Assembly: GCA_905178155.1 (NCBI GenBank)
Contig: CAJINV010000005.1
Location: 984,564 to 1,048,563 of the forward strand
Source of the DNA: Amoebophrya sp. A120
Lineage: Eukaryota > Protista > Dinoflagellata
DNA length: 64,000 bases
Direction of reading: 5' to 3'
The position numbers and the translations under genes are program-made. A model generated the notes under the pieces. That model worked only from the letters and a program-made list of their open reading frames with translations. It ran no database searches and had not been told where the DNA came from. Below are positions 3,001 to 38,400 of the stretch, in pieces. Each line of letters opens with the position of its first letter. Position 1 is the stretch's first letter.

Positions 3001-5822
3001 CCTTATGCTGTTTACAGCATTACAAGTTCCAAAACGCGATTGATAATGCCCCTCATGGGATCGCGCATTACAAACGCTCTCGTGCTTGCAGATCTGCATG
3101 ACAACTCTGTGGTGGGGACGTTTTTACACGGGATACCGCTGTTCATTTTGGAAGGCACGGGCGGTCCGGCCGACGGGTTCGCGGAGCTCATGCGGATTTA
3201 CGAAATGTTCTTTTCCCCGGACGCACTGTACCCCCGCGCGAGTCTGAAGTGGATCCACGAGGAGATCGAGAACCGGTTGACCAAGCGGAACCCTCGGTAC
3301 CACTTCACCTACCACCACTTTTGGACCTTCGCGCGGAACTTCGACGAATCCTTCCGCCACAATTCCGTCATGGTGGTGAATTTATCCTTAGATAACCCGC
3401 AGATGAAGATGCTCCCCGTCGAGCGGCTCCAGGACGAGATCACGCAGGTGATGTCGTCCGTGCACGAAAACTTGGGGGAGATCGGCAATCAAGAATCCGA
3501 GACGCGGGCGATCCAGCACGCGGCCGATTTGTTTGGCGTATTGCTCGACGCGGCGCGAAATTTCCGGTTCGCGGCGACCATTCTGATGACCGTGATCCGC
3601 GTGTTGATTCTCGTCTCCACCACTCTAGCCTTGGCGCAAGTGTGGCTGGAAGCGGCGGAGGACCACCACCCGTTCTTCATGCACAGCAGCGATCCGGGGC
3701 AGGACCGCGCCTGGGCTATTCTCTGGACCCGACGGTTAAACGTGGTACTTCCCTTACTGATCTCCGTCCTCGTCACCTTCAGCGCGAGCTACCGGCCGCT
3801 GCAACGGTTCGTCACCGTTTTCGCCGCGGCGAAACGGATCGAGGGGGAGATTTGGCGGTACCGGGCGCGCGTCGGGGAGTACGTGCCCGTATCGGTGACG
3901 GCGATGAGTTTGAGGAAGAGGAAATCCGCGCGGGAAAACTTCGCGTCCACCGTGGAGGAGATCTGGACCAGCTGCGGGTCCGCGGATTTACGCCTCGGAC
4001 ACTTCTCCCGGTTTTTACCGGATATCTTTTCCTCGGATCGGAACGTGCGCTCCTCCGCGCGGGACGTGCAGGGGCTGCAGTCCTGGAGCAACAATCGGTG
4101 GAGCCGGTCGAGGTCCTGTTTTACCGACGACGGAGATGACCCGCATAACTCCTTCGTCGATCCGCAACGAAACACGAGAAGAAGCTTCGGCCGGTCAAAT
4201 AGCTGGGGAATGAACAAGTTGGGAAAACTTGCCGGAGGCAAGGGCGCGCAATATCAAGACCGGTACGGATACTCTGGTAAAAATCTCGACCCACACGATG
4301 ATTATGGTGGAAGTAGGCGTGAAGCGTTTTACTTCGGAGATGACCAGCACAGCGACCATTCCGGCGACTCGCCTTACCACCACGGCAAAAACCAGGAAGT
4401 AAACAAGCGCAGTAAGTTTTACGGAAAAATGATGACGAACACACGACGCCGGGGCTCCACCGCCGATTTTTTGCTCGATGACAACAAGAAACCTGCCACC
4501 GGCCGGAGTATCAGTTTGAAATTTTTGGAGATGGATAAAGACGATGAAAATAGGTTGAACGCGCCAGTGGTGACGCGGAAGCGGGAATTTTTATCGTACA
4601 AGGCCTGGACGGAGAAGAACCGGGGCCGGGACAAACTTTTGACCGGTGGGGACAAAAACAGTCTCACCTGCTTATCAAGGTGAAAAATGCCCCTACCCCC
4701 GAACGTGGGAGCATTTGTATTGCAAACCTTTCCAAATGAAACATACGCCCTCTTGCATCTTCAGCACCACAGATTTCCAATCGTGAATAGCAAAACTTTG
4801 TATTGCAAAAGACCCCAGCAAAAGTGGCGCTTGTCATGCAAGCGATGCGATACACGCGTAGACTCTGCACCAGAAAGATTCATACTTCTTTCATGCATGA
4901 CAAAAAGTTTGCATCTGGGAACTTCGCATCACAAGTTTTTACGACTTTGGGGGTGGTGGCATTTTTCACTGTAATACTGCTCCGCCGAAGTGTACGTCCG
5001 CGACCGGGTTTTGCCGCAGTTACGGGAGAACGAGCGCATGACGCCGAAGCTGGCGATATGGAATGCAAATATGTCTGGGTCATCTGGAAGAATGCACGTT
5101 TGTCATGCATGTCTGGCATGACTCTTACATCTGTGATGCATGAGCAGGAAAAGGGCCTCGTGCCTGTCATGCAAAAGCGCAGTTTATCATGCGGAAAACG
5201 CAACACTGAGCAGCGCAGACCTTTCTCATGCAAAGCTGTGCATTACAGAGCATTCACGATTCCCAACCAAGTATTACAAGTTTCCAGACCCAGACATATT
5301 TGCAATGCATAGGCGAGACAGCTGTACCAGTTGCAGTTCGCGATCATTGTTTTGAACGCGAGTAACGCCGCGTTGGTGGCATTCGGGGCGGCGGTCTGGG
5401 TGCCGTTGTTACTCGCTCTCGCGTCTTTACTGGAGTACTCGGTAACGTACCAGGCGTTGGAAATGCGGCTGCCGCACATGAACGCCGCGACGAACACGTT
5501 GGTGAAGTTACTTCTCTGGTGGGACGGGCTGACGCGCATCCAGCAGCGGATGCCGGAGAGCAAGGAATTTTTGGTCGATTCGGCGGAAAAAGCGATTTTG
5601 TTACAGCACGACGCGTTCGTCACCGGCGCGCTAGCGTCGCTCCGAGACGCGATCGGGAAGAAGCAGAATCAGAGCAACGACGCAACCGGGGCGGAATTGG
5701 AGGGAAATGGGAATGGGCAGTGGAGAGGAAATTCCTGTGTGCAAGTCGGGAATAGCGGAGGGTTCAAAGGAGGGACGGGTGGGGAGTCGCTAAATCGGAG
5801 CCAGCGGGCGCATAGCATGTAG
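1..5822 (+). CDS. 5'-partial multi-exon gene: low-complexity N-terminus + SLOG/LSDAT (TRPM N-terminal-like) domain + two SLATT-like 2TM domains
   Basis: Frame is open from base 1. GT-AG introns at 2047-2475 and 2617-2737; introners at 2857-3135, 4673-4976 and 5057-5311. The spliced product contains ILTGIIEACAQTNSVFLLG, NVTHVLVF and LIVAGGTGP..RTGSPLFILEGTGGPAD (LSDAT-like), then LPLLISVLVTFSASYRPLQRF..AAKRIEGEIWRYRARVGEY and EVYVRDRVLPQL..LYQLQFAIIV..LLLWWDGLT..LVDSAEKAIL (SLATT-like). Stop at 5820-5822. Confidence 0.75.
2144..2405. repeat. 13-bp tandem repeat (GCTAAGCGCACTA), about 20 copies, intronic
   Basis: Directly visible head-to-tail copies with minor variants (GCTACGCGCACGA), inside intron 2047-2475. 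Confidence 0.95.
2857..3135. mobile_element. Introner, TIR family B (279 bp), TSD CCGCT
   Basis: TATCCTATGTAAAAACATCCCCACC...GGTGGGGACGTTTTTACACGGGATA. CCGCT at 2852-2856 and 3136-3140. Removal gives ..RTGSPLFILEG.. Confidence 0.93.
4673..4976. mobile_element. Introner, TIR family C (304 bp), TSD CTGCT
   Basis: TATCAAGGTGAAAAATGCCCCTACCCCC...GGGGGTGGTGGCATTTTTCACTGTAATA. CTGCT at 4668-4672 and 4977-4981. Removal gives ..SLTCSAEVYVRDR.. Confidence 0.92.
5057..5311. mobile_element. Introner, TIR family A (255 bp), TSD GGCGA
   Basis: TATGGAATGCAAATATGTCTGGGTC...GACCCAGACATATTTGCAATGCATA. GGCGA at 5052-5056 and 5312-5316. Removal gives ..MTPKLARQLYQLQF.. Confidence 0.93.
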
Positions 5823-6311: not shown

Positions 6312-9300
6312 ATGACCACCGAAGAGGGGCTCGGCGGCGCAACGCCGTCGGCTTTTCCAGAACCGCTAAGCGTCGTCGACGTGGTTGCCACTGAAGATGT
6401 CACAATTACGGAAGATAGGCCAATCGAAGGCGAGCTTACCCAGGCCGCCGTGTCCGACACCGAGAAGCCGGCAAGTGAAAACCCGGCCAGCGAAATGCCC
6501 ACCGATGCAGCCGGGGCTCTGGGTTTTTGCAAGGAGAACCAGGCCCAGTTTTTGTCTGGTATCACCGTCGCATTGGCCATGATCCCTGAGGCCGTGGCGT
6601 TTTCCTTCGTCGCGAAGGTGGAACCGCCAGTGGCTCTCACGGCAGCCTGGATCATGTGCTTTTTCACCGCCGTAGCGGGCGGCAGGCCAGGTAAAAAAAA
6701 CATTTTGCCACCCGGTCGAGTTCCACGACCAGTGCTCATAAGATAGTTAGGTGCAACATGGGCACCGGGCAAGTTGCAACTCTCGAACCCACTATCACAA
6801 CAAAAAACCAGGTATGATTTCCGGTGCCACCGGTTCCATGGCGGTGATCATGACGTCCATAGTCACTGACGAAGGGGTGGAGTACCTTTTCTGGTATCCT
6901 GTGTAAAAACGTCCCCACCCCAGAGTTGTCATGTAGATTTGCAATTGCAGGAACATTTGTAATGCGCGTCCCCAAGGGAGGCATTTCCAATCGTGTTTTG
7001 GCATTTGTAATGCTGCAAACAGGATAAGCAGATGGATTTGTGATGTGGCTGTCCTTGCTAACATGCACTACACTACGGACTGCAACTTGTCATGCGTGGG
7101 TCCCAAAGCTTCTGGGTTTGTAATGCTACGCTCCCAACTTGACTATGGGGTGGGGACGTTTTTGCATATGATATCTGGGCCGTGATGTTTTGCGGTTTGT
7201 TTCAAATCCTGCTCGGGTTCGCGGGCATCCACAAAGCACTCTCCCTGGTCACCTTCCCTGTCAAGATCGGGTTTCTCAACGGGCTCGCACTGGTGATCGG
7301 GAAGGCGCAGCTGGAATCCTTTTTGATCCCGCACGGGGAGACCACCGAGAAAACCGAGCATTTGGAGATCGTGGACTTCGTGTTGGCGACCAGCAACTAC
7401 GTGAAAGCAGACAAACTGATCGTCATGCTGGTACTAATAGTATAGCAACAGCTAGCTATAGGTTTTTTTCTGGAGAAATTCCGTCATAGCAAGTTTGATG
7501 GTTTCAGCATTCTTGCAATGGTTTCGGCGACAGCAAAACTCTTTTTGTCCTCTTCCTGTGCATTTTTTGCATCTGCTCTTCAAAGAGGATTCATTTTCCT
7601 GTTCCAAGCGAAAGAAGTATCAAACCCGCGGCCTAAAAAATAAGGTCCTTTCCTTCATCGCCCTGGGCATCAACTTTCTTCCCGAAAAGTTTCAAAAATA
7701 CCCCCTCGCGCTTATCTCCATCGTTTTCGTCACCGTCCTGGAGCACGCCTGCGTCCGCACGTTCATTCTGCCGGATGAGGGAACTACGCTCGTGGAGGAC
7801 ATGGCGAATCTGAAAGGGAACTTCCTCGAGGTGGTGTTTAGCAAGTACGACATGCCGAATCCCTTCAACGACGGGGGTGCACTCGCGTCGACGATTCTCA
7901 CCGCGGTTTATTTGTGCGTGATCGGGCTCACCGAGTCCCTGATGACGTTGGAGAAGATCGACGAGATGCTGCCCGACTCCCCGCCCGGAGATGCGAGACG
8001 GGAGGTTTTGGCGCAGGGCGGCGGCAATTTGATCTGTGGGTTCTTCGGGTCCATGGGCGGTTGCGCCATGATCGGGCAGGCCATGATCAACGTGCGGAAT
8101 GGCGGCACGAAGAGGATAGCCGGTATGACGGCCGGTGTGGGCACGCTTCTGATTATGGTGGCCATCAGTCCGGTTATAGGAAAAATTCCGGTTGGCAGTT
8201 TGGTCGGAGTGATGTGGTATAATTTTTTCCAGCTACGAAGATCATCAAGATCACACATCAAGAATTACTATCGCTTCGCATCTAAAATGTCCGAAAACGA
8301 GTACAATTGCACCTCCTACTCATAACAGGTGCGTGTCGTATCACACCTGGGAGAAAAAGACCCACATCCTGTTCTACGAGGCCTTTACGGGCAAGCCCTG
8401 GAAGCCGATTGAAGTATACGTCGTCAGCGAGGAGGCCGTGACCCCCGCGGTGGAGTCTCCCGCAACGACCGAAGGCGGAAATAGAAATCAGCTGCTGCCG
8501 CCGGGCGGCGATAATGTGGTGCGGGTGATCTCCGTCAGCAAGGAGGCACTGGCGCAAGCCGACGTAGGCCGATCGGGCTCCAAGGACCCACCCCCAGCGG
8601 ACGACTCGTTTGGGCAACCGCCCAGGTCCCAGCCCAGTAAGGAAACGGTCGGCAGCAAAGGATCGGAAATATCATCATGTACAGATAGATATTTTTTTGG
8701 GTACCGATTTTTTTTTGTTGTACTACAAATACAAACAGAATTATGAGGAGTATAGCAGGTATGCTGGTTCTTGTTTGTTCTTCGATTGCGACAGCGGCGC
8801 ACGTGAACAAAATCGAATGCACAATGAATTCTACTACCAAAATGCAAAAATAGACTCCGCCGGCGGCACGCGCGTGGTCCGCAAGCGGTCCAAGGGACAC
8901 TACCACCACGGCGTCGCGGGCGAGCAGAGTCCCGCGGCTAAGCGCGAAGACATCGTTTCGCATTTGGACAACGTGGTCGTCACCCCGGCGGCGCTGCGGG
9001 ACCGATCGCGGCTGTCCAAGGAAGAAGCGGAGGACGTTATCGAAAGGAAAAAGCCCCCCTCCCCGTATCAAACCGGAACTTCTGGCGCTGGATTTGCGTA
9101 CACAGATCAGCTTTGTCTTGCTGGAGAGGACTGCTGGCCCATATCAAGCCTTTGTAGGGAGATTTTGGCCTAGGCGCTTAGAATGAGAAACGTCTGCGCT
9201 GTAGGCTCACCAGCATCACAAACCCCCTGCGTAAATGCGGCGGCGCCTGTGGAGTTGCCTTCTTGCAAGACAGAGATGGTTTGTGGTCGACAATCAGCAT

Positions 9301-10158
9301 TGCAAATCTTCTGCGGCGTGCCTTTTCGATATTGGGAGGGGGAGTTTTTCCTTTTGATAGACGTGCAGCTCGGTTTGGCGGAGCTTTCCCGCTTCGACTG
9401 CTTCATCGTGGTAGTGGTCACCATCGGGTATGAATTGCAAAAATGTCTGGGTCTGGAAGATTCTGACAGTTGTCACGCACGTTTTGCATGAGCCATGATG
9501 TCTGTGATGCATATACTAGCAATACAGATTGTTTGAGGGCTTCTTGATGCCTATTCCGCATCACAAATGCCTTCTCATCGTAGCAAAAATTGCATTCCCT
9601 TCGCTACTCATGCAATACAGATTTTTTTGGAATCCAAAGGCAGCATCACAAGTTGCAATCTTCCAGACCCAGACATATTTGCAATGCATATCGGGACGCT
9701 GATTACCAATCTCGCCATCGCGGTCGCGGCGGGAATCGTGATGTCGAAGCTCATATCCTAAGTAAAAACGTCCCCACCTCAGAGTTGTCACGCAAACTCT
9801 GCTGGCTGAAAATATTTCTCATTGCGGAGCTCCTCGAGAAGCATTTTCTAGTCGTGTTTCGTAGTTTGTCATGCTTTAAAAATCAGCATTATATGCTAGA
9901 TCTGTGATGCTGCTGAACTACCTGAGCAGCATTACACTACGAGGCCAAACTTGTCATGTGCAACAGCCAAAGCTGGTTGATTTGTCTAGCAGATATCTCA
10001 TCTTGATTCTGGTGTGGGGACGCCTTTACTCAGGATAGCTCAACAGCTTGTACCTGCAAAAGTACGGCGACGACAAGCCCGCCCCGGCGGACGCGAGTAC
10101 GAAGCCAGCGGTGGGCACACCCGTGGCGCAGGACCCGGAATCGCTGGCGCCGAATTGA
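6312..10158 (+). CDS. SulP/SLC26 family anion (sulfate/bicarbonate) transporter, multi-exon
   Basis: [90 protein letters not shown] and [10 protein letters not shown] are SulP motifs. Four GT-AG introns and four introners. Stop TGA at 10156-10158. Confidence 0.9.
6895..7173. mobile_element. Introner, family B (279 bp), TSD TCTGG, opposite orientation to 2857-3135
   Basis: TATCCTGTGTAAAAACGTCCCCACCCCA...TGGGGTGGGGACGTTTTTGCATATGATA. Removal gives ..EYLFWAVMFCG.. Confidence 0.93.
9038..9359. mobile_element. Introner, family D (322 bp), TSD GACGT
   Basis: TATCGAAAGGAAAAAGCCCCCCTCCCC...GGGAGGGGGAGTTTTTCCTTTTGATA. Removal gives ..[13 protein letters not shown].. Confidence 0.92.
9429..9690. mobile_element. 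Introner, family A (262 bp), TSD TCGGG
   Basis: TATGAATTGCAAAAATGTCTGGGTCTGGAAGA...TCTTCCAGACCCAGACATATTTGCAATGCATA. Removal gives ..[13 protein letters not shown].. Confidence 0.94.
9754..10037. mobile_element. Introner, family B (284 bp), TSD GCTCA
   Basis: TATCCTAAGTAAAAACGTCCCCAC...GTGGGGACGCCTTTACTCAGGATA. Removal gives ..[12 protein letters not shown].. Confidence 0.92.
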
Positions 10159-11275: not shown

Positions 11276-14200
11276 ATGTGTGCTTCATCTTTTCGACTTT
11301 ACTGCGCTTTGGTAACAGCATTTCACCGTCTCGCTCTGTTCCCGAGGAGCATCAGCGGTAGTTCTTTGAGATTACGAAAAAATGCCGGCCATCCGTCCGA
11401 GCAGAAGAAACCTATACCCAGGTCGTTGTCCTTTTTGTCCTCGAATAAACGCACGTCAAATCGCAACCGACCGCACCAGGACAAACCTCGGGGGCGGGCC
11501 CTACTAGAGCATAAGGAAAATATTAAGGGGCCGCTCGACGATGTGGCTAGGTTTTTTGGATTGCACGGAGGAGAAGACGAAAACTTCAAGCGCAAGCCTT
11601 GGAAGGTGTCCCAAATCGCCTGGGGAGAGCCCGGTGACGCGACGTGTCCCCCCGGGTCGGATATGCATTGCAAATATGTCTGGGTCTGGAATGTTGCCGG
11701 GTTTGTTATGCATGTTTTGCATGACCCAGGATGTCTGTAGTGCACGATCTAGCATCACAGATTTTTAGAGGGCTTCCTGATGCCTACTTCGCATGACAAA
11801 TGCCTTCCCCGCGTAGCACAAACTAGACTCCTCTTGCTGGTCTTGCAATACAGATTTTTTCAGAGTCCAATGTTAGCATCACAAGTTCCAACCTTCCAGA
11901 CCCAGACACTTTTGCATTTGATATCGGAACCGCTGGACGAGCGGTCGTGCGGGGATGCAGTGTACCTGATGCTCGACCACCTTATCAAAGTGAAAAATCC
12001 CCCCTCCCCAATTGAAACGAAGTTTGTGATGCTGGACTTCCGTACACAAATCAGATTTGTCTTGCTGGAGAGGACTGCGGGCCCATATCAAACCTGAGTA
12101 GGGAGATTTTGGTCTACACATTTAGCATGAGAAGCGTCCGTGCTGTAGGCTCAGCAGCATCACAAACCGCCTGCATAGCGCGGCGGAACCTGTGGGGCTG
12201 CCTGCTTGCGAGACAGAGATGATGATGATGATGTTACCCAGTAAAGGGTTTAGGGTGTTGAAGAACTAAAATATTCCTCAGCGTCGTGCTGCTCCTCAGG
12301 ACGTTCTCCTTCGTCGCAACGTCTGCGGCCACGTTTCTTCAACTTGCGCCGTGCCTGGTGCGATCTCATCGCCCCCACAATCCATCCCAGTTTGCGCAGC
12401 GGCTGTCCTTCGTCGGGGGTGTGAAATGTGGCGTCGTCGTGTTGAAGCTCGTACTTGTACACCTTGCAGTGCGGGCGCCGGATATGCTGCGCCCCCGCTC
12501 GGTCCGTGTAGAGGGATTCACGGGGCAGATGGTAAGCCCACGCCGAGGCACCGCCTCCGTAGGTGTACTTCGCTTCCGTCCTGTTCCAGCCATGATTTGT
12601 GGTCGCAAATCAGCATCACATGCCTTTTCGATATGGGGAGGGGGAATTTTTCCTCGTGATACACCTGCAGCTTTCGCACCAACGCTGGCCGGTGATCTCC
12701 TCCCGGGACTTCGTGGGACGTGGCCCCGATTCTGCGGGGTATTGGCGCGGGGAGTTGGGGTGGGAAAACCGCTGCGCTGGGGATGGAGAAAGGCGTTGCG
12801 GGGTGCATAACAAGAACTTGCCGTTCTACGGCGAGAAGCTGTGGGGCTTCCATAATTTGCCTGTGGGCTGCAGCGTACAGAGCACGGGGCGGGACCCGGA
12901 GGTGGACGTGCCGGGGACGCACGTGTGCGGCCCGTTAGATCACCAGTGGAGAATATCCCACAGAATAAAGAGACAGGCAGGCCATAAGTATTTGTGATGC
13001 AAAAAAGGAAAAAATGAAAGTATCATCTCTCTGGCGTGTCAGAAGCAGCATAGGGACGACGCCCATGACAGATCTTTCTGTTTAAAGTAATTTGTTTCTG
13101 CACGGTAAACATCAAGTATGCCAGGCCTGCTCTATTTCTGCGGGATAGAGGATGCCGCATTATCGCGACCCGAGTTACCGGGTGCCGCCGGACTGGTACC
13201 AGGTACCGGAAGAGGAGATGCACCTTGATAGTGAAATGCTCCTTCAATTTCAAGGTGTGAGAAGAGAAAGCGACGCTTGCCGCGAATGGCGCAGTGCCTA
13301 TATCCCGGTTTGCCGCCGATTGGAGGACATAAACGACAGTGTTTCAGAGGACGAGATTGCGGATCTTCCAGCTTCCTGGACCACGCCTCCAGTCGCGCCG
13401 CAGACGATAGACGAACTAGCTTGGGGCGAGCCGGGGGACGCCGACTGCCCGCAAGGGTCACACCCCCTGGAAGAGTCGTCTTGCGCGGTGGCCGTTGCGC
13501 TGCTACGCGAATACCATGATTGGACAACGAATATTCCCGGGCGCGTGCCGGCAGGATATACCGCGACCCCGAGGTTCCACACGACTAGCGATCTGACGTG
13601 GCCGGAACTCAGTAAAGAGGCTAGCATTAACAACCAACAGGACGGTCGGTACAATTTTAACGGCACTTCGTGTTCGAACGTCACCGCCGGTTTTAACGCT
13701 TTTATCCTACCTCACCTCGGAATCGAGTTTGCGCTTAGCGATAGCGAAATTGCGCGGGTGATAAACAGCGCCTGCCCGGTAAACGTGAACGTGCCGTTCA
13801 ATCCCGGCAGCACTCTAATTGTGTCACTCCCGGAAAGCCTCAGTAAGCTGCCGAATCCACACGAGCTGTATGACATGTATCGGGCTCGGCATAAAAACTG
13901 GACAAATGCTGAACCGTGGATGAAGTTAGCGGATGCCACAACTGGGTGGCAGAAGCAATGGGATTGGTATAATGTTCCCCTGGGTTGCAGCATCCAGTCC
14001 TCGGGCCGGGAGGTGGAACAGCAGACGCCGGACTCGCACCCCTGCGGAGCTAGCTTCACCCCGAATCGCGAGGCGCACTGGCGAGACGGCGAGGTTCCCT
14101 CGGACTGGCACGAGCCAAACGGTGCCTGTCGCGCGTGGCGCAGCATCTACATGCCGGTTTGCCGCCGCGACCGGCCGGACTCGTGGACGCCACCGGAAAA

Positions 14201-15851
14201 GCCCGCGGCGGTTACCTGCCCCCGCGGGAGCCGTCTGCTCGACTACAAGGGGACCGTCCGCGGCGCCGACATTGTAGGATGCGGGATCGAGGACTGCGAC
14301 GCACGCACGCTGAGCTCGCAGGCAGCGACAACACAGGACTGCTACAATCTCTGCCGTAGAATGCAGCCCTTGTGCCAGGCCTTTGAGTGGGCTGATGTCG
14401 GGTGGAGCGAGAAGACGCCGAACCGCACCAATTGCGAGTTGCACGGCGAGGCAGAGCCAAACGGCCTGCAGCACGGGGTCGACGGCCACTTCCACCAGAT
14501 TGTGTGCGGACTCGAGGAAGTGCAGTCGCCTCAGGTCGTGCCGAAGGGACCGGAGGTTCTCGGCACTATTGCAGCGGACGCCGCAGCTACGGACGGTGCG
14601 CGGGTTCCCGCGTCAGAGGTGGCGCGTGATCGGACAGCAGCAGCTGTAGCGGAGCAAGAGCCGAACTCTCCGGCTTCCTCAGAGCCTCCGCCCTACGTGC
14701 ACCCGACGTGGCCACCTACTGCCGTAGTTCCTTCAGCGAAACCAAAGGGGCCGTCCAGCGACTATGGACTGCAACTGACAGCGAAGCAACAAGGATCCGC
14801 TACTAACAGTACTTCTACTTCGGCGAGGACAGCACGCGAAGCGTCGACGAGCCATAACCACACAATTATTTTCACCGACGATCATACACTCCATGCGCAT
14901 ACCTCCGAAGCGATAGAAGCTGCAACGGAACCGCCCGAAAACGAAAAGAGCACGAACGCATCAGTCAAGGGGCAGGAAACCGAGGACGCTGCCCAACGTG
15001 GCGGGGTAATCATGCAGAGCAGCAGAACTTCTGGCACGGCAGCTGCGGGTGCTCGGAATAGCACTGGGGAAGTCAGCGGTCGTTTGCCGGAAGGAGCCAT
15101 CAAATCACAGTCAGAAGAATTAGACACGCCGGACCAGGACGCAGTCCCAGCTGCGGCCGGGCGCGTTGCCACAATTTGTGGCTGCTCCGCCACCTTCGTT
15201 TTTGCAACATCGCTCCTGAGTGTCATTATCCTTTGTCTGGGCGTCGCGTTTTGCTTCGTATTTCTCTCCAAGCAGGACATGGCGACGGAGCTGCAGGACC
15301 AGCGGGCGCGACACTTTGCAAACCAGTTCGACTACGACCCGCAGCGGCAATTTGATAAGTTTGGCGATTCGAATGCCGCATTGCAGGGGCGATCGCTGAA
15401 CTCGTACGATGTGAGTGTGGCAGCTGCGGGTCCTAGCGGCGTGGCAAGATCAGCCATAGCAACGGGGGTTGAAGTCCCGCCATCGCACCTCAACAGCCCT
15501 GGGTCGATCTACCCGGACTTCATGGCGCAGCCGGGTAGTACAACAGCAGACATGACTTCTAAGCGCAAGAGCAGCTCTCCAGGGCGGGATCTTCCGCCTG
15601 CCGCCAGCGGCCTTGCTGCGACCTCCCGAACAAGTGAGGGACCAGTTCATACAACTCTTATGGTACCTGCGCCGCCGGTACCTCAGTCGACGAAGACTGG
15701 CCTTCTAGTGCCAAGCGCTGATTTTGGATCGGGCGAAAGCCAGGGAAACGCGAACGCCGATAGTCTTGACGAAGATGTAGAAGCTGCCGACCGCCGGCGG
15801 GCAGGCGAGAATGGGAGCAGCGAAGAATCAGTCAGTGACGAGGATTTTTGA
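11276..15851 (+). CDS. Cys-rich type I membrane/surface protein with an internal duplicated module and a PAN/Apple-like domain (start uncertain)
   Basis: Duplicated module AWGEPGDA.CP.GS.PL...SC / N.P.GCS.QS.GR..E...P..H.CG / C(R)EWRS.Y.PVCRR. PAN-like CYNLCRRMQPLCQAFEW..NCEL. Ser/Thr/Pro stalk, one hydrophobic TM (FVFATSLLSVIILCLGVAFCFVFL) and an acidic tail. Three introners interrupt the 5' part. Confidence 0.7.
11662..11923. mobile_element. Introner, family A (262 bp), TSD TCGGA
   Basis: TATGCATTGCAAATATGTCTGGGTCTGGAA...TTCCAGACCCAGACACTTTTGCATTTGATA. Removal gives CPPGSEPLDERSC, matching the internal paralogous repeat CPQGSHPLEESSC. Confidence 0.94.
11983..12661. mobile_element. Introner, family D (679 bp including a nested insert), TSD CACCT
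   Basis: TATCAAAGTGAAAAATCCCCCTCCCCA...TGGGGAGGGGGAATTTTTCCTCGTGATA. Interior aligns with 9038-9359 apart from about 373 extra bp. Removal gives ..MLDHLQLSHQRW.. Confidence 0.92.
12219..12591 (-). mobile_element. Probable 5'-truncated non-LTR retrotransposon 3' end nested in an introner
   Basis: Absent from the sister D copy. The minus strand reads as an open frame ending TAA at 12250, followed by a short 3' UTR and a (CAT)5 tail. ATGAT occurs at both junctions. Confidence 0.6.
12954..13147. mobile_element. Introner, family F-like (194 bp), TSD GAGAA/GAGGA
   Basis: TATCCCACAGAATAAAG...CTCTATTTCTGCGGGATA. Removal gives ..HQWRMPHYRDP.., joining two ORFs. Confidence 0.85.
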
Positions 15852-16353
15852 ATTATCGATACAGCTTGTCATTCAAACCACAATTAGAAATCGCAAATAC
15901 TACTAATTAAAGCGCAGCTTTTCTTGCTAATTTGTCCTCCACTTTTGCGGCGCCAGTCTTCGATATGAAATCAAACTTGTTTCATGTTTCGTATCTCTCT
16001 GGTAACATTTATTTTTCACTTGCGCACTGGCACGCAGCTAGCATTCTACCTCCGGAAGTGCCACAGCCTTCCTTTGTGTTTCTTCGCTTATTGCCCAGTG
16101 AGGCGTAGAATGAGGGAAGGGAAAAGTCGGAAGAAGAGCTTCGTTCTACGAAACCAAGTGCGACGTGTGTGCGATGAAGAGAGAAAAAGAGAGTAATACG
16201 TGCAGGTCCGAACAAGATCGATGGCGTGCTGCGGTTCCAGTGGAGCACCTCGTGCCTTTGGTACTAAATTTTGCGTCAATATTACTGAGTCGGTGTACGT
16301 GTAGATTTGGAATGCCACATTCGTTTTTTCTACTCAGCTAAAAACACAACAAA

Positions 16354-17970
16354 ATGCCTGAGTCACCCACGAGCAAGCGCCGGAAATCCTCGGTGGACGA
16401 CGACGATTTCTTAGACTTGCCTGTGCAAGAGAAGGTTAAGGCACTTTTCGCTCCGAGAGCCGAAGACAAAAAGGAGGGTGCGACCCCTGACGCAGCAAAA
16501 ACAGAAATCGAGCGCAAGCGCGCCGAAATTGACGCTGCTGTCGAAGCGTTCGAGAAACACGCGATTGAGAAATTCCCAAAATTTTTGGAGTTCGACACCC
16601 AAAAGCGGATCGACGCCACGCTGCAAATTATGCGGGACCTCCACAAAGAAGAGCAGGCGGCGGAGGTTCACGCCCTGCTCAGTGGCGGCAAACAAGTCGA
16701 TCGCGAAGCTCGTGAAAAGCGCCACCGGCTATGTCGTGGTGCTCTCGATTTGCCACGACAGATTGACGACGAGAAGATAGAGCAGCTTGTCGACGCGCCT
16801 CATAAATTTTTCCTGCCCGCACGAAAAGCAGACACGGATGAGGTGCGACTGCACCGCGGGGACTTCGTTTACGCGCACAACACACCGTGGTTGCCGGAGA
16901 ACTATTCCACCTTCAGCAAATATTTCGTCTTCTGTTCAAGCGGGTCCGCGGCTCACGGTTTTCGGAACTCTATCCTGGATCATGAGGCGGTCAGCTTGAT
17001 CAACCTCCCTTCCGCCAGCGGGCTATGTGCGTCGAACGTCTGTGCACCACTGCGTCCGCCGAATGGAAACCGGGACTGGTTCCTGGCTGGTAGCGACTAC
17101 TGGTTCGATGCGGACACCGGGTGCGCGGTGACCTGGTGGATGACGTGGGAGAGGGTCCTGAAACACTGTCTGCTGGAGCAGCCACTGCAGCCGGCAAAAA
17201 TTTCGATCGAGTTCGTCAACGGGAAACAATCCTTCATGGGAAACAGGTTTGAACAGTCAGGAATAATGACGGACTTTGCCGGGGACTACTTTGTCATCAC
17301 CCTGTCCGGTTGCCAGCGCGACTTTTCTTCCGATCGCGACTGGCAACGGTTCGCCATGCAGGAGGATCCCGCGTTGCTGGACGAGAGCTGCACATTGATG
17401 GTGGCTTCCGGAGACAAAATCGCCTTGATCGACAATGCGGGAGAGTTTCTGTCAGAACTTCGCACAGGGAACACCGACTGTGACGGCCACTTTCTGCGGT
17501 TTCACCGCGCCGAGTTCGTGGCCGTGTGGCCGAAGCAGGCGGAGTACCTGGGACTCAGCGCTTCTGCGGAGAACGGACTCACCAAGATTTGGAAGTTCCA
17601 CAATTGTTACAAGCTGGACCGGCTGCAGAATGTATTCGCGGAATTCGTCACAAGCCTGTCACAAACCGCTCACGAACAGGAAGAGGAGCTCAAGGAACGG
17701 GCGGCCTTAGAAGCAGACGACGAAGAAGTGGAATCACTGCCGTTGCGCTGCGACTTTGAAAACTTGCTGGAAGAAAACCCATTCTGCAAAGAAATCAGCT
17801 TTCAGTGGCCGCGGAAAAAGAGGGACAAGAAAACGGGGGAAGGCGAGGAGCTCGGGCGGTTTTCTGTGCGAAGAAACCTCTCCACAAACGAAGATGAAGT
17901 TAAATCGGCGCGCTTGTTTACCTGGACTGGACTTGATGATCAGGCAGGTTCATCTTCTACACCTGCGTAA
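16354..17970 (+). CDS. Hypothetical protein (538 aa, single exon)
   Basis: Long ATG-initiated ORF with coding-like composition and AT-rich flanks. No recognisable motif. Confidence 0.75.
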   Translation: MPESPTSKRRKSSVDDDDFLDLPVQEKVKALFAPRAEDKKEGATPDAAKTEIERKRAEIDAAVEAFEKHAIEKFPKFLEFDTQKRIDATLQIMRDLHKEEQAAEVHALLSGGKQVDREAREKRHRLCRGALDLPRQIDDEKIEQLVDAPHKFFLPARKADTDEVRLHRGDFVYAHNTPWLPENYSTFSKYFVFCSSGSAAHGFRNSILDHEAVSLINLPSASGLCASNVCAPLRPPNGNRDWFLAGSDYWFDADTGCAVTWWMTWERVLKHCLLEQPLQPAKISIEFVNGKQSFMGNRFEQSGIMTDFAGDYFVITLSGCQRDFSSDRDWQRFAMQEDPALLDESCTLMVASGDKIALIDNAGEFLSELRTGNTDCDGHFLRFHRAEFVAVWPKQAEYLGLSASAENGLTKIWKFHNCYKLDRLQNVFAEFVTSLSQTAHEQEEELKERAALEADDEEVESLPLRCDFENLLEENPFCKEISFQWPRKKRDKKTGEGEELGRFSVRRNLSTNEDEVKSARLFTWTGLDDQAGSSSTPA

Positions 17971-22919: not shown

Positions 22920-23253
22920 AGCATGAACATACGCAGTTTATCTCACATGACAAAATTTTTCACGCGCTTCGTTGCAAGAGTCGGACCTTTCATGTGTAGG
23001 TGCGGTTCATCTAAGTGGCGCGAAATTGATTCAGTCCGTTACTCAGCGGGTTTTCCTTACACACTGGTGGAGGACTCGTTCTCTAGTGGACAAACAAACA
23101 AACTATTCTTTCGCAACGCTCTTCAGCATGATTTTTGGCATTTGCTGGCATCGCGAATTCGCGTCTCGTGCAAAGCGGCTTCCCTTGCTGCGGCGGTTGC
23201 TTGTGGCAGCCGTCGTGTAGTGGAGCCGTTCTAAACTGGCGCTACAGTAAAAA

Positions 23254-23749: not shown

Positions 23750-23846
23750 TTCGATACTACGCTTTGGGATGGCATGCCACGGTAGAAATTCGCTCCAAAT
23801 GAGAAGTTGTCGGCGTGCGCATCCTGTCCGGTGATTTTCGCGTGCG

Positions 23847-24447: not shown

Positions 24448-24684
24448 ATCTACTCTTTCGCCACCTCCCGGCTGTCTTTCCATACCCTGCGATACCATGC
24501 AGAGGGCTACTGTCAACCGTCTGTCTTGCTATATGCTTTTCCAGCAAGATAGAACTACTTGACCGTTCGTTGCTGCGTTACTTTCTCCCGCCGGGGTCGA
24601 GCTCCAAGCCGTTGAGAAGCGCTTCCTACCGGCTACCGCCCCAAGAACAATAAAACAATCTTCGTTCCTCCATCTTCACATCAG

Positions 24685-27561: not shown

Positions 27562-28750
27562 ATGGCCGCCACCGTCGGCACACTCGGCAGTGACGTGGTC
27601 GGCGTCATCTCGCCCGGGACCGAGGTGCAGATCGAGGGGTTGCAAAACGCGGCGCACTTGAACTATCAAATGCAAAAATGTCTGGGTCTGGAAACTTGTG
27701 ATGCCGCATGGCAACTCAAGAGAACGCCAGAAATGACGGCTTAGCATGACAGGTTTTTGATTCGCTAGGTGTTGCCTATTCTGCATGAGAAACTGGGTTT
27801 TTGCCTCCCACAAAAGCGGCGCTTTTGGGTACCTTGCATGACAGTCATGCTAGCAGAGCATGACTTTCCAGACCCAGATATATTTGCAATGCATATGAGC
27901 GGGTTGAAGGCGATTGTGGTGGAATACGACCAGGACAATAACCGGTACAAAGTCCTATGAACTGCAAAAGTATCGTACTCGTATAAATGCATTACAAATT
28001 TTCTCAGCATGGGAAATCAAATTTGTCATGCTGATTTACCTTAAGAAAAATATTTGTAATGCAAGACTTGCAGTTATACGAGTGCGATACTTTTGCACAG
28101 GATAAGTCCACGTCGAGGACGATTCGAACATTGCTCTGCGCGCGCAGAACTTCCGAATCCTGTCCGTTGCCGCGGCCCCGGACGTGGTCATTGGCCAAGC
28201 GAGTTCTCCGAACCCAGGAGTGCGGCTGAGTCAGCAATCTGGGAGTCCTGCGAATGCGTCATCGTTGTCGATCAATGTGCCGCCGCCCACAACGGTAAAC
28301 CAGCAGTCGACGGTGACCTCCATCTTGTCCCGGCGGGACAGCTATCAACTGCAAACATGTCTGGGTCTGGAAGATCGCCACGCTTGTCATGCATATTCGG
28401 CATGACCAAGGATGTCTGTAATGCATGCCCTAGCTGCATCAGAAATTTTTACAGGGCTTCCTAATGCCTATTCCGCGTGACAAATGCCATCCCCGCGTAG
28501 CACAAACTGGACTCCTCTTGCTGGTCATGCGATGCAAATGTTTTTAGAATCCAAAGCTAGCATCACAAGTCCGAACTTTCCAGACCCAGGCATATTTGTA
28601 ATGCATAACAGCGAGGACGCGCTGTTTCACAAGCTTGGCTGGACCGATTACGTGTTGTGTGGCGAGTTTCCTTTGTTCACGAAGTCGCTGGTGATTGGGG
28701 GGCTGTGGATGTTTTTGGTAACCATGCTTCTCATCTACGCGCCGCGGTAG
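27562..28750 (+). CDS. Small protein with a VxIxGL..LNG..RYxV (SH3/KOW-like beta-barrel) module and a C-terminal TM
   Basis: After removing three introners: PGTEVQIEGLQNAAHLNGLKAIVVEYDQDNNRYKVHVEDDSNIALRAQNFRIL...SLVIGGLWMFLVTMLLIYAPR*. Confidence 0.8.
27664..27895. mobile_element. Introner, family A (232 bp), TSD TGAAC/TGAGC
   Basis: TATCAAATGCAAAAATGTCTGGGTCTGGAAA...TTTCCAGACCCAGATATATTTGCAATGCATA. Removal gives HLNGLKA. Confidence 0.92.
27956..28104. mobile_element. Introner, family E (149 bp), TSD AGTCC
   Basis: TATGAACTGCAAAAGTATCGTACTCGTATAA...TTATACGAGTGCGATACTTTTGCACAGGATA. Removal gives RYKVHVEDD. Confidence 0.92.
28343..28607. mobile_element. Introner, family A (265 bp), TSD ACAGC
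   Basis: TATCAACTGCAAACATGTCTGGGTCTGGAA...TTCCAGACCCAGGCATATTTGTAATGCATA. Removal gives RRDSEDALF. Confidence 0.93.
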
Positions 28751-29454: not shown

Positions 29455-30773
29455 ATGGTCGTCGTGCCGCGGTTCGACCCAGCGGCGCTTGGCAAGAAGA
29501 AGCGAAAGCGGGATGAAAATAAACTTGACGTTGACAGCGCTGCAGCAGAACAGTTCGTGGCTGCTGCTGCTGTTCCAATAAAAGAACCTGCTATCGGAGC
29601 GGATAATCCGGAACCCGGTTTCGAGAAGAAGAAAAAAAAGAAGAAGCGAAAAACTGAAGTAGAAGAATCTACTGTCCTCGGAGTTGTGGATCATGCTGTC
29701 GAAGCACCATCACTGGAAAAAGCCGAAGCAGGTACAACACGACCGGGAAATAAAGCGACAGTAGACGATAAAATAAATTCTGCGAGTACAATAGAACCAG
29801 GCTTCGCGAAGGAGAAGAAAAAAATTTCCGCATCAGCTAGTAAAACTTCAGCTGGACCTGCAGTATCCCCCAGAAAAAGACCGACAGGTCATATTTGTAA
29901 TGCAAAAATAAATAGACAAAAAAATATGTATTGCGTGCCCTAAACAGGATGTTATGGCCTCGCCCATGACAGATTTTCCTGTGTATTTATTTTTGCATTA
30001 CAAATATGACCTGTCGGTCTTTTTCTGTGGGATATGCAGGCCCAAGTGAACAAGATGTCAAGCCGAAGTTGAACCGGTGGAAAGTGAACCCCAAATTCGC
30101 GTTCTCCTACCGCAAGAACGAATCTACTGCGGCGTTGCCAGCGACAGTAGAAGAAGAAAAAAGGAAAAATAATGCTGAGGCTCATGGAACAAAAGATGCC
30201 GTCTCAACAGCAGCAGCAGCAGCAGCAGCAGAGGAGGATGATTCTAATGCGGCCGCCAAGGACGAAGCGGAAGCAGACGCAGACGCAGATGCGCCCGCAC
30301 CTGGAGTTGAAGATGATGAAAATATTTTCGAGGAAGTAGAGCAACAACCTGCATTCGTTCCCGATGTGAACGACTGGCTGGCCTCGTTGGGCGCCGCAGC
30401 AAAGCAACCTGGAACTCTAGCGGCAGGAAAAACTACCTTTGATGCTGCTTCATCATCCACTGACGGAACCAAGCACACCTCTGCCGACGGTTCGACGAGA
30501 GCGACAAAACGAGAACTCACCCCCGAGGAAAGAGAGCTCCTGCTCAAGCCCTGGCTCAGCTGGCCGAAAGTGCAAGATGTCGACAAGCCTTTCAAAAAGC
30601 CAATATTGCCTTTCTGCCGAACCGAATCGAGCAAGGAAATGTGGGACCGATGGCGGCTTTTGCAACCGGCGAGGGAGAAGGATATAAAAGAAAAATGGAA
30701 GCAGACAAAGCGGCTCCACGCAAAAATGATGGAAAACAGATGCGTGGAGCGCGGGATGTACAAAAGATCATGA
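29455..30773 (+). CDS. Lys/Glu-rich, probably nuclear/nucleolar hypothetical protein
   Basis: Two ORFs (29455-29943 and 30006-30773) joined in frame by removing introner 29864-30034. Poly-K NLS-like tracts. C-terminal FCRTES..W..KDIKEKWKQTKR is weakly reminiscent of NOL8-type C-termini (tentative). Confidence 0.7.
29864..30034. mobile_element. Introner, family F (171 bp), almost entirely a hairpin, TSD TGCAG
   Basis: TATCCCCCAGAAAAAGACCGACAGGTCATATTTGTAATGCAAAAATAAATA.. is mirrored at the right end (over 50 bp near-perfect IR). Removal gives AGPAGPSEQD. Confidence 0.95.
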
Positions 30774-35410: not shown

Positions 35411-38400
35411 ATGGCGGACGAATACGACCGGCATACCGTCCAGGAGGATCCTGGAGGACAGCAGGAGCAGGATGTCGAACAACGGATATCCCAACCCGAG
35501 GAGTCGCCTGTCAGAAAATCGCTGGAAGCGAAGATGCAGGACGAGAAGCGGAACCTCGTGAACCGGCTGAAATCCCTCCACCATCGGTTCGTTTTTTGGT
35601 TTTGCGCCACCTTCGCGGTAAACCTTTCCGTTGCGATTTTCACGCTTTTAATCTGGTCCCACATCGGCTACGGTGCCAGCAGCTACCGGTGGGCGATGAA
35701 GCAAACGACGGTTGGGTTTTTCTTGTGGTACGGCGGGTTTTTCGTGTTATTTCTACTCTACCTGTTGGACTTCTTCACAGCGCCTTACGTGACGAAACCC
35801 AGCCGGTCCGAGGTGCAAGCTCTCATCGCGGAGGAGCGAGCAACCGGGACGAGCAGCATACTGGATGAAGAGGCACTGAAACAAGCGGCGGAGCTAGCGG
35901 AAAAGAACAAACAAGAAGCTCCTGCTGCTTCACCGCAAATATTACCCAGCGCGGCGCCACCAATTCCAGAAGTGGTGGTCGAGGGCGAGCACAAGTCGGA
36001 GGCACCACCCGACAGCTCCGTTCCGGCGGTTCCCGCTGCAGCGCCCGCAACTAGTCCCCTGCCGTCTATCGCAACGCCGAAGATGGTCACGCTCGCCCCC
36101 CGGGAGGAGCCCCCCGCCCTTCCGAATTCCGAGTCCACTTCGACCGTCCGGCATCTGGTCTGGGGGAACAGACCCGGCGAGGTGAACGAGTACGGGACGT
36201 TTTTCCTGCGGTTTGTGTTCATCATAACCGGCTGCATGGCGTTGTGTTGGGGCGTCACGGCAACAGCCAGGTATCCGCACTACCCGGTCATGATCATGCT
36301 CATCATGCTCGCGTTGCTGCAGGTCATGGCCAGGTACAAGTTCCGACCGAAGCAGACCAAGCAGCACGACTTTGCGAAACGGCACAAGGGGCAGTCGGTG
36401 ATCCGCGTCATTGCCTCGTCCATCCACGACCCGCACCGAAGGTACGAGGCGGTGATGGAGGTGTTAACCAGGCATTTGCTCGTGGCGCACGACAAACTTT
36501 TGTACTACAAGGCTTTCGCGATCTCCACGCTTCTCACCGCCATGCTGGTTTTTAACATTTGGCTCCATTGGGCGTTTATCGGCGAGAAGAAGTACTGGGG
36601 CGCGGAGGTGCGGGAGGAAATGGTCGCAGACGGCGTGCAGCCGGAGGAAGAGTACGATGTGACGGAGAATCAGGCGTTTAACATGCAGTTCAACATCTGG
36701 GCGGCGCCGGTCCTGTTCTGCGTCGGCCTGGCGCTGCTGTTCGGGTTGCTGTCCCTGCGGGCGTATCTGCACATCCGGTACACGAAGACAGACGACCTGC
36801 TCACGGAGATTTCCCGGTCGGTCGCCTCCGTGGACCACGAGCTCGGGGACAGCATTCTGGGCGTCGGAAACATGGACGCGTTGGTGGAGACGGTGAAAAT
36901 TTGCGTCTGCGGGTTGTTCGCCACCGCGTTGACGTTTTGGGTGGCGGCGGAGGTGGGGGTCGGGGCGAGCAGCTCGGCCTTGGACATTTCCACCACGGTC
37001 CGGACGTTCATCGCCGCGTTGCTCTTCGCTTTCGTGGTCATCATCGCCGCGACCATGCGAAGATTGTACGCCCAGATGCTGGAGCACATGTGGAAGAACC
37101 CCTTTCTGAAGATCACGATCTCCGCGCTGCAGTCCGACTGGCTGAAAGCGTTGTTCTTGCTTTTGTTCTGTATCAAATGCAAAAATGTCTGGGTCTGGAA
37201 GAATGTATGTTTGTCATGCTTGTCTGGCATGACTCTTAAATCTGTCATGCATGTTACCCAAGAGCCCCACTTTTCTGTCATGCAGAAACGCAGTTTGTCA
37301 TGCAGAAACAGGCAACACCAAGAAGCTCAAAAACTTGTCATGCTGGGCCAGCTCTTGTGGCCTCCTCATGATACGCCACCCAGCATCACAAATTTCCAGG
37401 CCCAGACATCTTTGCATTTGATATTCTGGTGGATGCTGCCATTTTACTACTTAATCAGCGCGCTGAACAAGCTGGTGCGGGTATCCTATTTGAAAACGTC
37501 CCCACCCCATAGTTGTAATGCAAATCTGCATGCTGAAAATGTTTCTTATGCGGAGCCCCATGAGAAGCATTTTCTAATCGTGTTTTGCAATTTGTCATGC
37601 TCCAACCAGCATGGTATGTTAGATCTGTGATGCTGCTTAGATAGCTCAAACAGCACTACACTACGAGTCCAAATTTGTCATGCAAAACAGCCAAAGCTTG
37701 TGGATTTGTGTAGCCGATTCCCCATCTTGACTATGCTGTGGGGATGTTTTTACTCAGGATAGCGGGATTGCCGAGGGGTGTCGGATCAACAGTACTACGA
37801 CCCTGAGAAGACGTTTTTCCTCCCGGACCCGTGGCACAGCAGGTGCACGAAAGCCTGCAGCGCGCAGCTCGGGCATGTCGCGCAGTGGAACAAAACGAGC
37901 GTGATATCGAAGTATTTAACAAATGGAAATAATGTTTTTCATGCTAGTTTTCTTTTCGTGTGGTTCTATTTTGCCTTGCACCTGCTGCCTCTCGTGATAG
38001 TTTGGCATGAGCCTGACCCTTTCACGACGGTACATTGATAAAAATCAAAACAGTGGACAAAAATAACGCCTGTACTACTTCGATCAGGGCCTACGTCTGG
38101 GCGCTCGCCGTGTTCACCCTCAACGTCGGCTGTACCAAGGGACTGAACCTCGGTCTGATCGGTCTGGGCGAGGTTCTCAGCGGGAAGCCGGCGTACCAGA
38201 TCCTGATTGTGTGGTACATCGCCGGGTTGGTCGGGTTCTTGCTCCCCCCAGTCCCCGGCCCACCGGTTTATCTCTTCGGCGGCTTGGTCGTCGTTGGCGC
38301 GTTTGAGAAGGAATTTGAGGACCCGGATACGGGGTTTTGGCTCGGGTTGGCAATCACCTCCGTCGTCGCGTTGATTCTAAAATTGAACGCCTGCGCGATG

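What the first reader, a model, noticed from the sequence alone, without database searches (positions are those of the whole stretch)
4673..37761. Introners of different families cluster at a narrow 58-80 bp spacing
Seen, bases between neighbouring elements: 80 (4977-5056), 69 (9360-9428), 63 (9691-9753), 59 (11924-11982), 60 (27896-27955) and 58 (37424-37481). The next gaps are 238 and 292. Each close pair mixes two families and always includes family A, while exons of 1.6-3 kb elsewhere have none. Inference: an existing element directs the next insertion about 60 bp away (target capture by end-bound protein or chromatin phasing), or a minimal exon size is imposed on strong local hopping.
Basis: partly seen in the sequence, partly recalled or inferred. 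Interest (0 to 1): 0.8.

Follow-up and report, generated by a model that had tools for sequence, protein, structure and literature searches.

The report
Intron-making transposons land beside each other
In the parasitic dinoflagellate Amoebophrya, small transposons that are spliced out as introns sit 34-90 bases from one another far more often than chance allows, whatever their family, most likely because an element already in place draws the next insertion to a short zone beside its end.

Summary
The six gaps (80, 69, 63, 59, 60, 58 bp) are real. The elements are the published Amoebophrya A120 introners: TAT...ATA inverted ends, each with its own 5-bp target duplication, spliced out exactly in transcript contigs. 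The spacing rule replicates outside the window. In 651 kb of related loci, 162 of 403 neighbour gaps fall at 34-90 bp (7.3 per kb, against 1.6 beyond and 0.5 inside). A per-gene null with a minimum exon size gives 47+-5 where 94 are seen. The band is 34-90, not 58-80. It is family-blind: same-family pairs occur at about chance rate and 46 of 162 pairs lack family A. Local hopping, helical phasing and a nucleosome ladder are not supported. Canonical GT-AG introns attract elements weakly or not at all, but share the inner cut-off of about 30 nt, so that edge is probably a minimum exon size. Best reading: insertion is about four-fold favoured beside resident ends, through a factor common to all families (inferred). 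Selection for co-operative splicing is not excluded. I found no report of this spacing, but two key papers were unavailable.

The parts
4673..4976 (.). Introner, family C (304 bp), 5-bp target duplication; pair 1 left
   Evidence: transcript contig keeps 75 nt (=80-5) between 4667 and 5312
4977..5056 (+). 80-bp gap; 75-nt coding exon after splicing
5057..5311 (.). Introner, family A (255 bp); pair 1 right
9038..9359 (.). Introner, family C (322 bp); first of a chain of three in a sulfate-permease-family gene
   Evidence: (contig keeps 300 nt across 8679-10036, as predicted if all three elements and one GT-AG intron are removed)
9360..9428 (+). 69-bp gap; 64-nt exon
9429..9690 (.). Introner, family A (262 bp); its two ends pair in the predicted RNA fold
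9691..9753 (+). 63-bp gap; 58-nt exon
9754..10037 (.). Introner, family B (284 bp)
11662..11923 (.). Introner, family A (262 bp); pair 4 left
   Evidence: frame open after excision; no transcript joint listed
11924..11982 (+). 59-bp gap; predicted 54-nt exon
11983..12661 (.). Introner, family C (679 bp) holding about 370 bp of foreign sequence at 12222-12592
27664..27895 (.). Introner, family A (232 bp); its target duplication has one mismatch and the transcript keeps the upstream copy's letter
   Evidence: skip of 237
27896..27955 (+). 60-bp gap; 55-nt exon
27956..28104 (.). Introner, family E (149 bp)
   Evidence: skip of 154
28343..28607 (.). Introner, family A (265 bp), 238 bp beyond the pair
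   Evidence: skip of 270
37171..37423 (.). Introner, family A (253 bp); pair 6 left
   Evidence: skip of 258
37424..37481 (+). 58-bp gap; 53-nt exon
37482..37761 (.). Introner, family B (280 bp); pair 6 right
   Evidence: skip of 285
2857..3135 (.). Isolated introner, family B
6895..7173 (.). Introner, family B, with no element nearby; 83 bp downstream of the GT-AG intron 6691-6811
   Evidence: skips of 121 and 284
29864..30034 (.). Isolated introner, family F
50969..51434 (.). Isolated long family-A introner (466 bp)

Best explanation
Amoebophrya introners of all families sit 34-90 bp from each other's ends about four to five times more often than further away, likely because a resident element draws the next DNA transposition event into that zone through a factor that all families bind, while insertions closer than about 34 bp are likely lost because the exon left would be too short to splice. 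Shown: each element is a separate DNA insertion (own 5-bp duplication, both orientations, a flanking target motif that ignores gene strand); each is spliced out whole; the excess is family-blind, measured from the end rather than the centre, on both sides. Inferred: the shared factor binds the TGT[C/G/A]ATG repeat that peaks 30-50 bp inside the ends of the five largest families, or the common TAT-N7-AAA tip. It would either tether the incoming transposase loosely or keep about 90 bp of flank open. The broad, unphased band fits a loose tether or an open patch better than a rigid ruler.
For: Band: 162 of 403 gaps at 34-90 bp, 7.3 per kb against 1.6 at 91-200 and 0.5 at 0-33; strict set 92 of 291. 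Nulls: 100 against 36.7+-5.4 under per-gene uniform placement; 94 against 47+-5, maximum 61 in 600 runs, with a 29-nt minimum exon; a four-fold weight reproduces 95. Element-specific: rate ratio 5.6 (4.1-7.6) from element ends; 7.7 per kb against 2.3 per kb from canonical splice sites; element-to-canonical exons 22 against 18.9+-3.7, p=0.24. Family-blind: 21 of 116 same-family against 26.1+-3.5 permuted; 46 of 135 gaps without family A lie in the band. Gap does not depend on family or length (A about 263 bp median 58, E about 158 bp median 56; p=0.19). DNA-level insertion: exact 5-bp duplication in 359 of 477 elements; family A inserted 72 to 86 in the two orientations, and the one-sided T-N-G target motif ignores gene strand. 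Shared internal motif: 16.6 per kb inside against 0.47 outside. Inner edge shared with canonical introns: 0 exons under 29 nt against 8.7+-2.8 expected. One paralog pair, 85% identical, has a chain of four elements in one copy and one element in the matching stretch of the other, none at the same site.
Against: No direct insertion data. Motif count barely predicts having a close neighbour (family A p=0.18, E p=0.008, C p=0.42, uncorrected). The target motif is not relaxed in close pairs (1.91 against 1.87) and faces neither in nor out (53 to 58). By the hazard method canonical splice sites also show a ratio of 2.3 (1.4-3.7), so a weaker intron-wide effect is not excluded. When degenerate pieces are counted, five elements lie within 33 bp of a canonical site (7, 29, 29, 30, 33). 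Canonical introns outside the window are predicted by my own gene finder. No transposase was found in 11 reading frames of long elements. Pairs in non-coding DNA, which would favour insertion bias over splicing selection, were too few and too doubtful to use.
Confidence: 0.5

Rival explanations
1. Selection after insertion: elements land without regard to neighbours, but a new hairpin intron is spliced better when another hairpin intron lies one short exon away (co-operative loading of the unknown non-canonical splicing machinery), so such insertions survive more often.
For: Predicts a family-blind, element-specific band without DNA phasing and with a steric inner limit, all as seen. The sites are coding: 365 of 389 exact insertions. 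U1 snRNA was not detected and the splicing route is unknown (PMC7789003).
Against: About two thirds of ends have no close neighbour, and elements without a close neighbour are spliced exactly (skips of 284 and 270). It needs a four-fold survival difference. The clustered share is the same in all three divergence thirds (0.46, 0.47, 0.46), though that age proxy is weak. No upstream or downstream bias (34 to 30; 25 to 19).
Confidence: 0.25
2. Nucleosome linker targeting, as reported for algal introners: each element end positions a nucleosome (or DVNP complex) that covers about 35 bp of flank, and the next insertion falls in the adjoining linker of about 55 bp.
For: Sharp inner and fairly sharp outer edge with linker-like width. 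Linker insertion is reported for Micromonas and Aureococcus introners and predicted for many genomes (PMC9860276 passages).
Against: No second peak one repeat further out: 8 exons at 143-199 and 8 at 200-256; hazard 0-2.3 per kb in all bins from 140 to 1000. No CpG, GC or WW periodicity in 231 kb of coding sequence. A 150-bp and a 260-bp family give the same gaps. Dinoflagellate chromatin is largely non-nucleosomal (abstract listings). Power for a weak second peak is low.
Confidence: 0.13
3. Intron-wide effect: any splice junction (spliceosome, exon-junction complex, exon definition) favours new introns one short exon away, and elements only look special because they are the commonest introns.
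For: Hazard ratio 2.3 (1.4-3.7) beside canonical sites; 22 against 15.6+-3.5, p=0.057, under the plain null; shared inner edge.
Against: The rate beside elements is 3.4 times that beside canonical sites, and the canonical excess vanishes under the minimum-exon null (p=0.24). Only 1 of 39 predicted canonical-canonical exons (the gene finder may miss short ones) and 0 of 7 transcript-supported ones (99, 1312, 151, 149, 136, 92, 255) lie in the band.
Confidence: 0.07
4. Local hopping (a copy re-inserts beside its donor), joint insertion of two elements, or gene-level hot spots.
For: Clusters and chains exist: 101 pairs, 19 triples, 7 of four, 2 of five.
Against: Same-family pairs are not enriched. 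Close A-A pairs have median identity 0.665 (n=16) against 0.67 for random pairs. Each member has its own duplication. Member divergences do not correlate (rho -0.01, n=100). Per-gene nulls already absorb gene-level differences.
Confidence: 0.05

Closest known systems
Amoebophrya sp. A120 introner elements (Farhat et al. 2021, PMC7789003; classed as TIR DNA elements of unknown superfamily in PMC12130899 supplement)
   Same: These are those elements. A window exon is 100% identical to an A120 protein. The ends are TAT + 7 + AAA, with short direct repeats, a hairpin and non-canonical splice ends.
   Different: The sections, passages and supplement legends I read say nothing on spacing between elements. 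The fixed 5-bp duplication as a rule across families, the one-sided T-N-G target motif and the shared subterminal repeat are not described in what I read (one figure legend shows a 5-bp example).
Micromonas and Aureococcus introners inserting in nucleosome linkers (Huff et al. 2016; seen only as cited in PMC9860276)
   Same: Non-autonomous TIR elements with target duplications that make introns, placed non-randomly at a scale of tens of bases.
   Different: Those keep canonical splice motifs (PMC7789003 section 16) and follow chromatin. Here the reference point is another element's end, with no repeat one nucleosome further out.
Tethered retrotransposon targeting beside tRNA genes: Dictyostelium TRE5 (40-54 bp upstream, via TFIIIB), TRE3 (40-150 bp downstream), NLTR-B (39-64 bp) (PMC5911963 table 1)
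   Same: Insertion within a window tens of bases from a protein-bound landmark. TRE3's broad window is the closest in shape.
   Different: Those are retroelements aimed at a host gene and away from coding DNA. Here DNA elements cluster at their own kind, on both sides, inside exons, and no tether is identified.
IS3EU/GingerRoot DNA transposons (PMC10045372 passages)
   Same: TA..TA termini.
   Different: They usually make 6-bp duplications; these make 5 (359 of 477 at 5 bp, 0 at 6). No transposase is at hand to place them.

Membership tests
Amoebophrya A120 introner elements | Host is Amoebophrya sp. A120 | tested here: met
   Exon 35411-37168 is 100% identical over its length to an A120 protein and 52% to A25
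Amoebophrya A120 introner elements | Inverted repeat starting TAT, seven variable bases, then at least three A | tested here: met
   Motif from PMC7789003 section 11; seen in the end consensus of window families A, B/C, E and F; two minor families outside the window depart from the A run
Amoebophrya A120 introner elements | Direct repeat of 3-5 nt at the exon-intron boundary | tested here: met
   5-bp repeat perfect in 14 of 16 window elements and 4 of 5 bases in the other two
Amoebophrya A120 introner elements | Removed from mRNA with non-canonical ends, frame restored | tested here: met
   Skips of 284, 237, 154, 270, 258 and 285 = element+5 in contigs that also skip GT-AG introns; open frames after excision. 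The tool only guesses that these runs are RNA.
Amoebophrya A120 introner elements | Repeated in the genome; hairpin joins the ends | tested here: met
   Families; ends pair in three of three predicted folds
Nucleosome-linker-targeted introners | Insertions recur at the nucleosome repeat length | tested here: not met
   No second peak; no dinucleotide periodicity; power limited
Nucleosome-linker-targeted introners | Sites coincide with mapped linkers | not testable with these tools
   No MNase or ATAC data available
IS3EU/GingerRoot | TA..TA termini | tested here: met
IS3EU/GingerRoot | Target duplication usually 6 bp | tested here: not met
   0 of 477 at 6 bp, 359 of 477 at 5 bp
IS3EU/GingerRoot | IS3-like DDE transposase in an autonomous copy | tested here: inconclusive
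   No transposase match in 11 frames from long elements; no whole genome held
Tether-targeted mobile elements (TRE5/Ty3 type) | Insertions enriched in a defined window from a landmark | tested here: met
   34-90 bp from element ends, ratio 5.6
Tether-targeted mobile elements (TRE5/Ty3 type) | Element protein binds a factor at the landmark | not testable with these tools
   Neither transposase nor factor is known
Tether-targeted mobile elements (TRE5/Ty3 type) | Bias present in new, unselected insertions | not testable with these tools
   Only fixed copies seen; age proxies uninformative

The most novel reading that the evidence does not exclude
Self-targeting introners: all TAT-type families share a DNA-bound factor on their subterminal repeat that recruits the next transposase to within 34-90 bp. 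Intron gain is then self-propagating and cuts long exons into runs of 30-85 nt exons, landing each new intron where hairpin splicing already works. This would be a direct route from long-exon genes to the very short exons of core dinoflagellates (median 51-81 bp in the three Symbiodiniaceae columns of PMC7789003 table 1).
Probability: 0.3. Interest if true: 0.85.

Novelty: new variant of a known kind. Interest (0 to 1): 0.68.

Why it matters
Where new introns land, and why exons have the sizes they have, is an open question, and Amoebophrya A120 has about 30,000 young introner copies (PMC7789003). A strong, family-blind preference for a 34-90 bp zone beside existing elements means intron gain here is not random. 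It creates short exons directly. Either a transposon aims at its own kind, or the unknown hairpin-splicing machinery works co-operatively across a short exon. Both are new handles on a splicing system that lacks a detectable U1, and public genome and RNA data can test the pattern at once. The one-sided target motif and the shared subterminal repeat give baits for finding the missing transposase or host factor.

Tried and rejected
No whole genome is held and the related loci's records cannot be searched further, so the genome-wide histogram for A120 itself could not be made. No listed run is on record as RNA for this stretch. Two raw-read runs gave no usable cover (529 and 2 partial reads), so splicing efficiency was not measured. 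Helical phasing: maximum Rayleigh Z 0.89 at 9.5-11.5 bp, p=0.72; an apparent 10-bp pattern in the first 92 gaps vanished with 162. Multiples of three: 61, 51, 50. Which element end faces the neighbour: 54 to 48 for A, 27 to 20 for E. Insertion order and direction: no signal, but the divergence proxy does not separate perfect from decayed duplications (p=0.21), so this is weak. Composite transposition: each member has its own duplication. Decayed elements posing as canonical introns: the motif is in 4 of 22 close and 21 of 61 far canonical introns, so it does not explain them. Non-coding pairs: 10 candidates, labels unreliable. No Rfam match in the window. No relative for the insert in 11983-12661. 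Earlier findings of this scan: three look-ups, nothing. Huff et al. 2016 is not held.
Full report
WHAT THE ELEMENTS ARE. Self-comparison and inverted-repeat searches and a strict search for TAT...ATA ends with a 5-bp target duplication (5 weak hits in shuffled DNA against 437 real) give 16 elements in the window. They fall in five families by my labels: A 7, B 4, C 3, E 1, F 1. A long exon is 100% identical to an Amoebophrya sp. A120 protein. The ends match the published A120 introner motif, TAT + seven variable bases + AAA (PMC7789003 section 11). The elements are therefore known; the question is their spacing.

THEY ARE INTRONS. Contigs of runs X3 and X5 (one sample; RNA is the tool's guess, but they also skip GT-AG introns) skip 237, 154, 270, 258 and 285 bases at five elements, in each case element length + 5, and 284 at 6895-7173. 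One contig keeps 75 bases between 4667 and 5312. Another keeps 300 bases across 8679-10036. Both are what removal of all elements predicts. Five spliced genes read without internal stops; one is a sulfate permease. Predicted folds pair each element's own ends, also when two neighbours are folded together.

THE OBSERVATION. All six gaps are exact, and six of 15 gaps in such a band never arose in 200,000 uniform placements.

REPLICATION. No genome is held, so I searched metagenome contigs for a family-A end motif. After merging overlaps, 134 pieces and 651 kb remained. They carry the same families: the nearest copy of each window element is 78-92% identical. They share no unique sequence with the window. 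One of their proteins hit A25 at 43% and no A120 protein within the lengths searched. So this is an Amoebophrya population with A120-type elements, not shown to be the same strain. Strict elements gave 291 gaps: 3 below 34 bp, 92 at 34-90. Adding decayed ends by profile (weak hits of small families dropped) gave 403 gaps: 8 at 0-33, 162 at 34-90, 46 at 91-200, or 0.48, 7.3 and 1.6 per kb with locus ends treated as censored. One 17-bp gap is counted twice. Biases: loci were chosen by family A, and short-read contigs may break at close pairs. The 135 gaps with no A member show the same band (5 below 34, 46 at 34-90, 10 at 91-147, 2 at 148-204).

NULL MODELS. I trained a gene finder on element-free sequence. 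It recovers 12 of 12 transcript-supported introns, but these were its seeds, so that is no independent test. Placing each gene's elements uniformly in its coding sequence gives 36.7+-5.4 exons of 29-85 nt (gap minus 5) against 100 seen, and 22.4+-4.3 below 29 nt against 2 seen (window included). Forbidding exons under 29 nt gives 47+-5 against 94 (window excluded); a four-fold weight on the band reproduces the count.

Half of the close gaps (80 of 162) are 34-57 bp. Same-family pairs are 26 of 162 close against 44 of 198 far (p=0.18), and 21 of 116 against 26.1+-3.5 on permutation. About a third of ends have a close neighbour in every large family (0.28-0.38). DNA contigs of the window's organism also join A ends to A starts and show gaps of about 28-45 bp. 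In the published A120 example gene, four of eight consecutive introner pairs lie 298-330 bp apart by listed position, which fits element plus a short gap, though lengths are not given (PMC12130899 Dataset S3).

CANONICAL INTRONS AS CONTROL. Among 144 high-confidence introns of 337 predicted, elements lie 29-85 nt away in 22 cases. The plain null gives 15.6+-3.5 and the minimum-exon null 18.9+-3.7. By hazard the rate is 2.3 per kb against 7.7 beside elements, though still 2.3 times (1.4-3.7) its own far background. So the attraction is mainly element-specific; a weak intron-wide part is not excluded. No intact element lies under 29 nt from a high-confidence canonical site (0 against 8.7+-2.8); with decayed pieces the closest are 7, 29, 29, 30 and 33. 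The inner edge is thus shared and is best read as a minimum exon size. A second possible contributor is two abutting 18-bp target footprints (36 bp), suggested by the target motif below.

CLUES TO MECHANISM. The duplication is 5 bp in 359 of 477 elements and never 6. Family A inserts in both orientations, 72 to 86. A T-N-G motif lies 18 and 16 bases outside one end only: in A and E, 203 elements have it on one side, 13 on both and 74 on neither. Its side follows neither gene strand nor element orientation. It is weaker or T-only in families B, C, G and H, which hints at more than one transposase (inference). All families carry TGT[C/G/A]ATG repeats (16.6 per kb against 0.47 outside), with a peak 30-50 bp inside the ends. 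Neighbours are not copies of each other. There is no 10.5-bp phasing, no second peak and no dinucleotide periodicity. Gap size does not depend on element length. The two ends of an element gain neighbours independently (37 both, 180 one, 158 none; p=0.20). In L007, two paralogs 85% identical share no insertion; one has a chain of four (gaps 74, 52, 81) and the other a single element 2 bp from one of those sites. That is one example only.

READING. Shown: DNA-level, separate, family-blind insertions concentrated 34-90 bp from element ends. Inferred: a factor common to all families marks resident ends and raises insertion about four-fold within about 90 bp, with a splicing floor cutting off the inner 34 bp (0.5). 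Selection for co-operative hairpin splicing predicts nearly the same picture and cannot be separated with fixed copies alone (0.25). Nucleosome linkers (0.13), an intron-wide effect (0.07) and hopping or hot spots (0.05) fit worse.

LITERATURE. Nine full-text searches returned no title or abstract on spacing between introners in Amoebophrya; most listed papers I saw only as listings. Read: PMC7789003 (abstract, sections 11, 12 and 16, passages, term search of its supplement; figures not seen). PMC12130899 (passages; supplement files 4 and 9 whole, A120 rows 1-22 of 58 in file 8, file 14 not searched). Passages only: PMC9860276, PMC10045372, PMC8151067, PMC11282704, PMC5911963, PMC12595863. Huff et al. 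2016 is not held, and Roy et al. 2023 on dinoflagellate introners was not read; either may bear on novelty. The expectation that rigid DNA tethers give helical phasing is my own background knowledge.

VERDICT. The mechanism is narrowed to two testable options. Interest 0.68.

Noticed in passing
flanks of elements in window and loci L001-L142: One-sided target motif T-N-G at 18 and 16 bases outside the element end (13 and 11 outside the duplication), strong in families A and E, weaker or T-only in others; independent of gene strand and element orientation.
   Followed up: yes
inside all element families, e.g. window 9429-9690: Shared repeat TGT[C/G/A]ATG, about 35 times denser than outside, peaking 30-50 bp inside the ends and reversed in family E.
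   Followed up: partly
all loci: 365 of 389 exact insertions lie in predicted coding sequence and only 9 in intergenic DNA, which is 30% of the sequence; elements nested inside elements are nearly absent (one doubtful case).
   Followed up: partly
all elements: CpG observed/expected is 0.64 in elements, 1.08 in coding sequence and 0.94 in canonical introns: possible methylation decay of elements.
   Followed up: no
window 12222-12592: About 370 bp of foreign, exon-like sequence inside a family-C element, starting with a short GAT run and a telomere-like TTTAGGG (dinoflagellate repeat recalled, not from a call); no protein relative found. A 33-base piece is matched by 529 otherwise unrelated reads of run X9, perhaps only through the simple repeat.
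   Followed up: partly
window 12877-17184: About 25 listed places where the window has A and DNA contigs (often transcript contigs too) have another letter: probably assembly base errors near the N run at 18311-18410.
   Followed up: no
window 27659-27900: The two copies of the target duplication differ at one base and the transcript keeps the upstream copy's letter, so the cut lies after base 4 or 5 of the upstream copy.
   Followed up: partly
L007 5944 and 11323: Paralogous genes were hit independently by families A and H 2 bp apart: a possible site-level hot spot.
   Followed up: partly
confident coding insertion sites: Insertion phase is skewed: 183, 105 and 103 across the three codon positions.
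   Followed up: no
window 50969-51434; L046 571-1051: A long form of family A (466 and 481 bp, 78% alike over 492 columns), without a recognisable protein domain.
   Followed up: partly
window 2087-2463 and 23231-24456: A 13-bp tandem array and two sets of 214-280 bp direct repeats unrelated to the introners.
   Followed up: no
predicted canonical introns: Donors are mostly GTA (181 of 289); 20 of 144 high-confidence ones contain the element repeat motif and may be decayed elements.
   Followed up: partly
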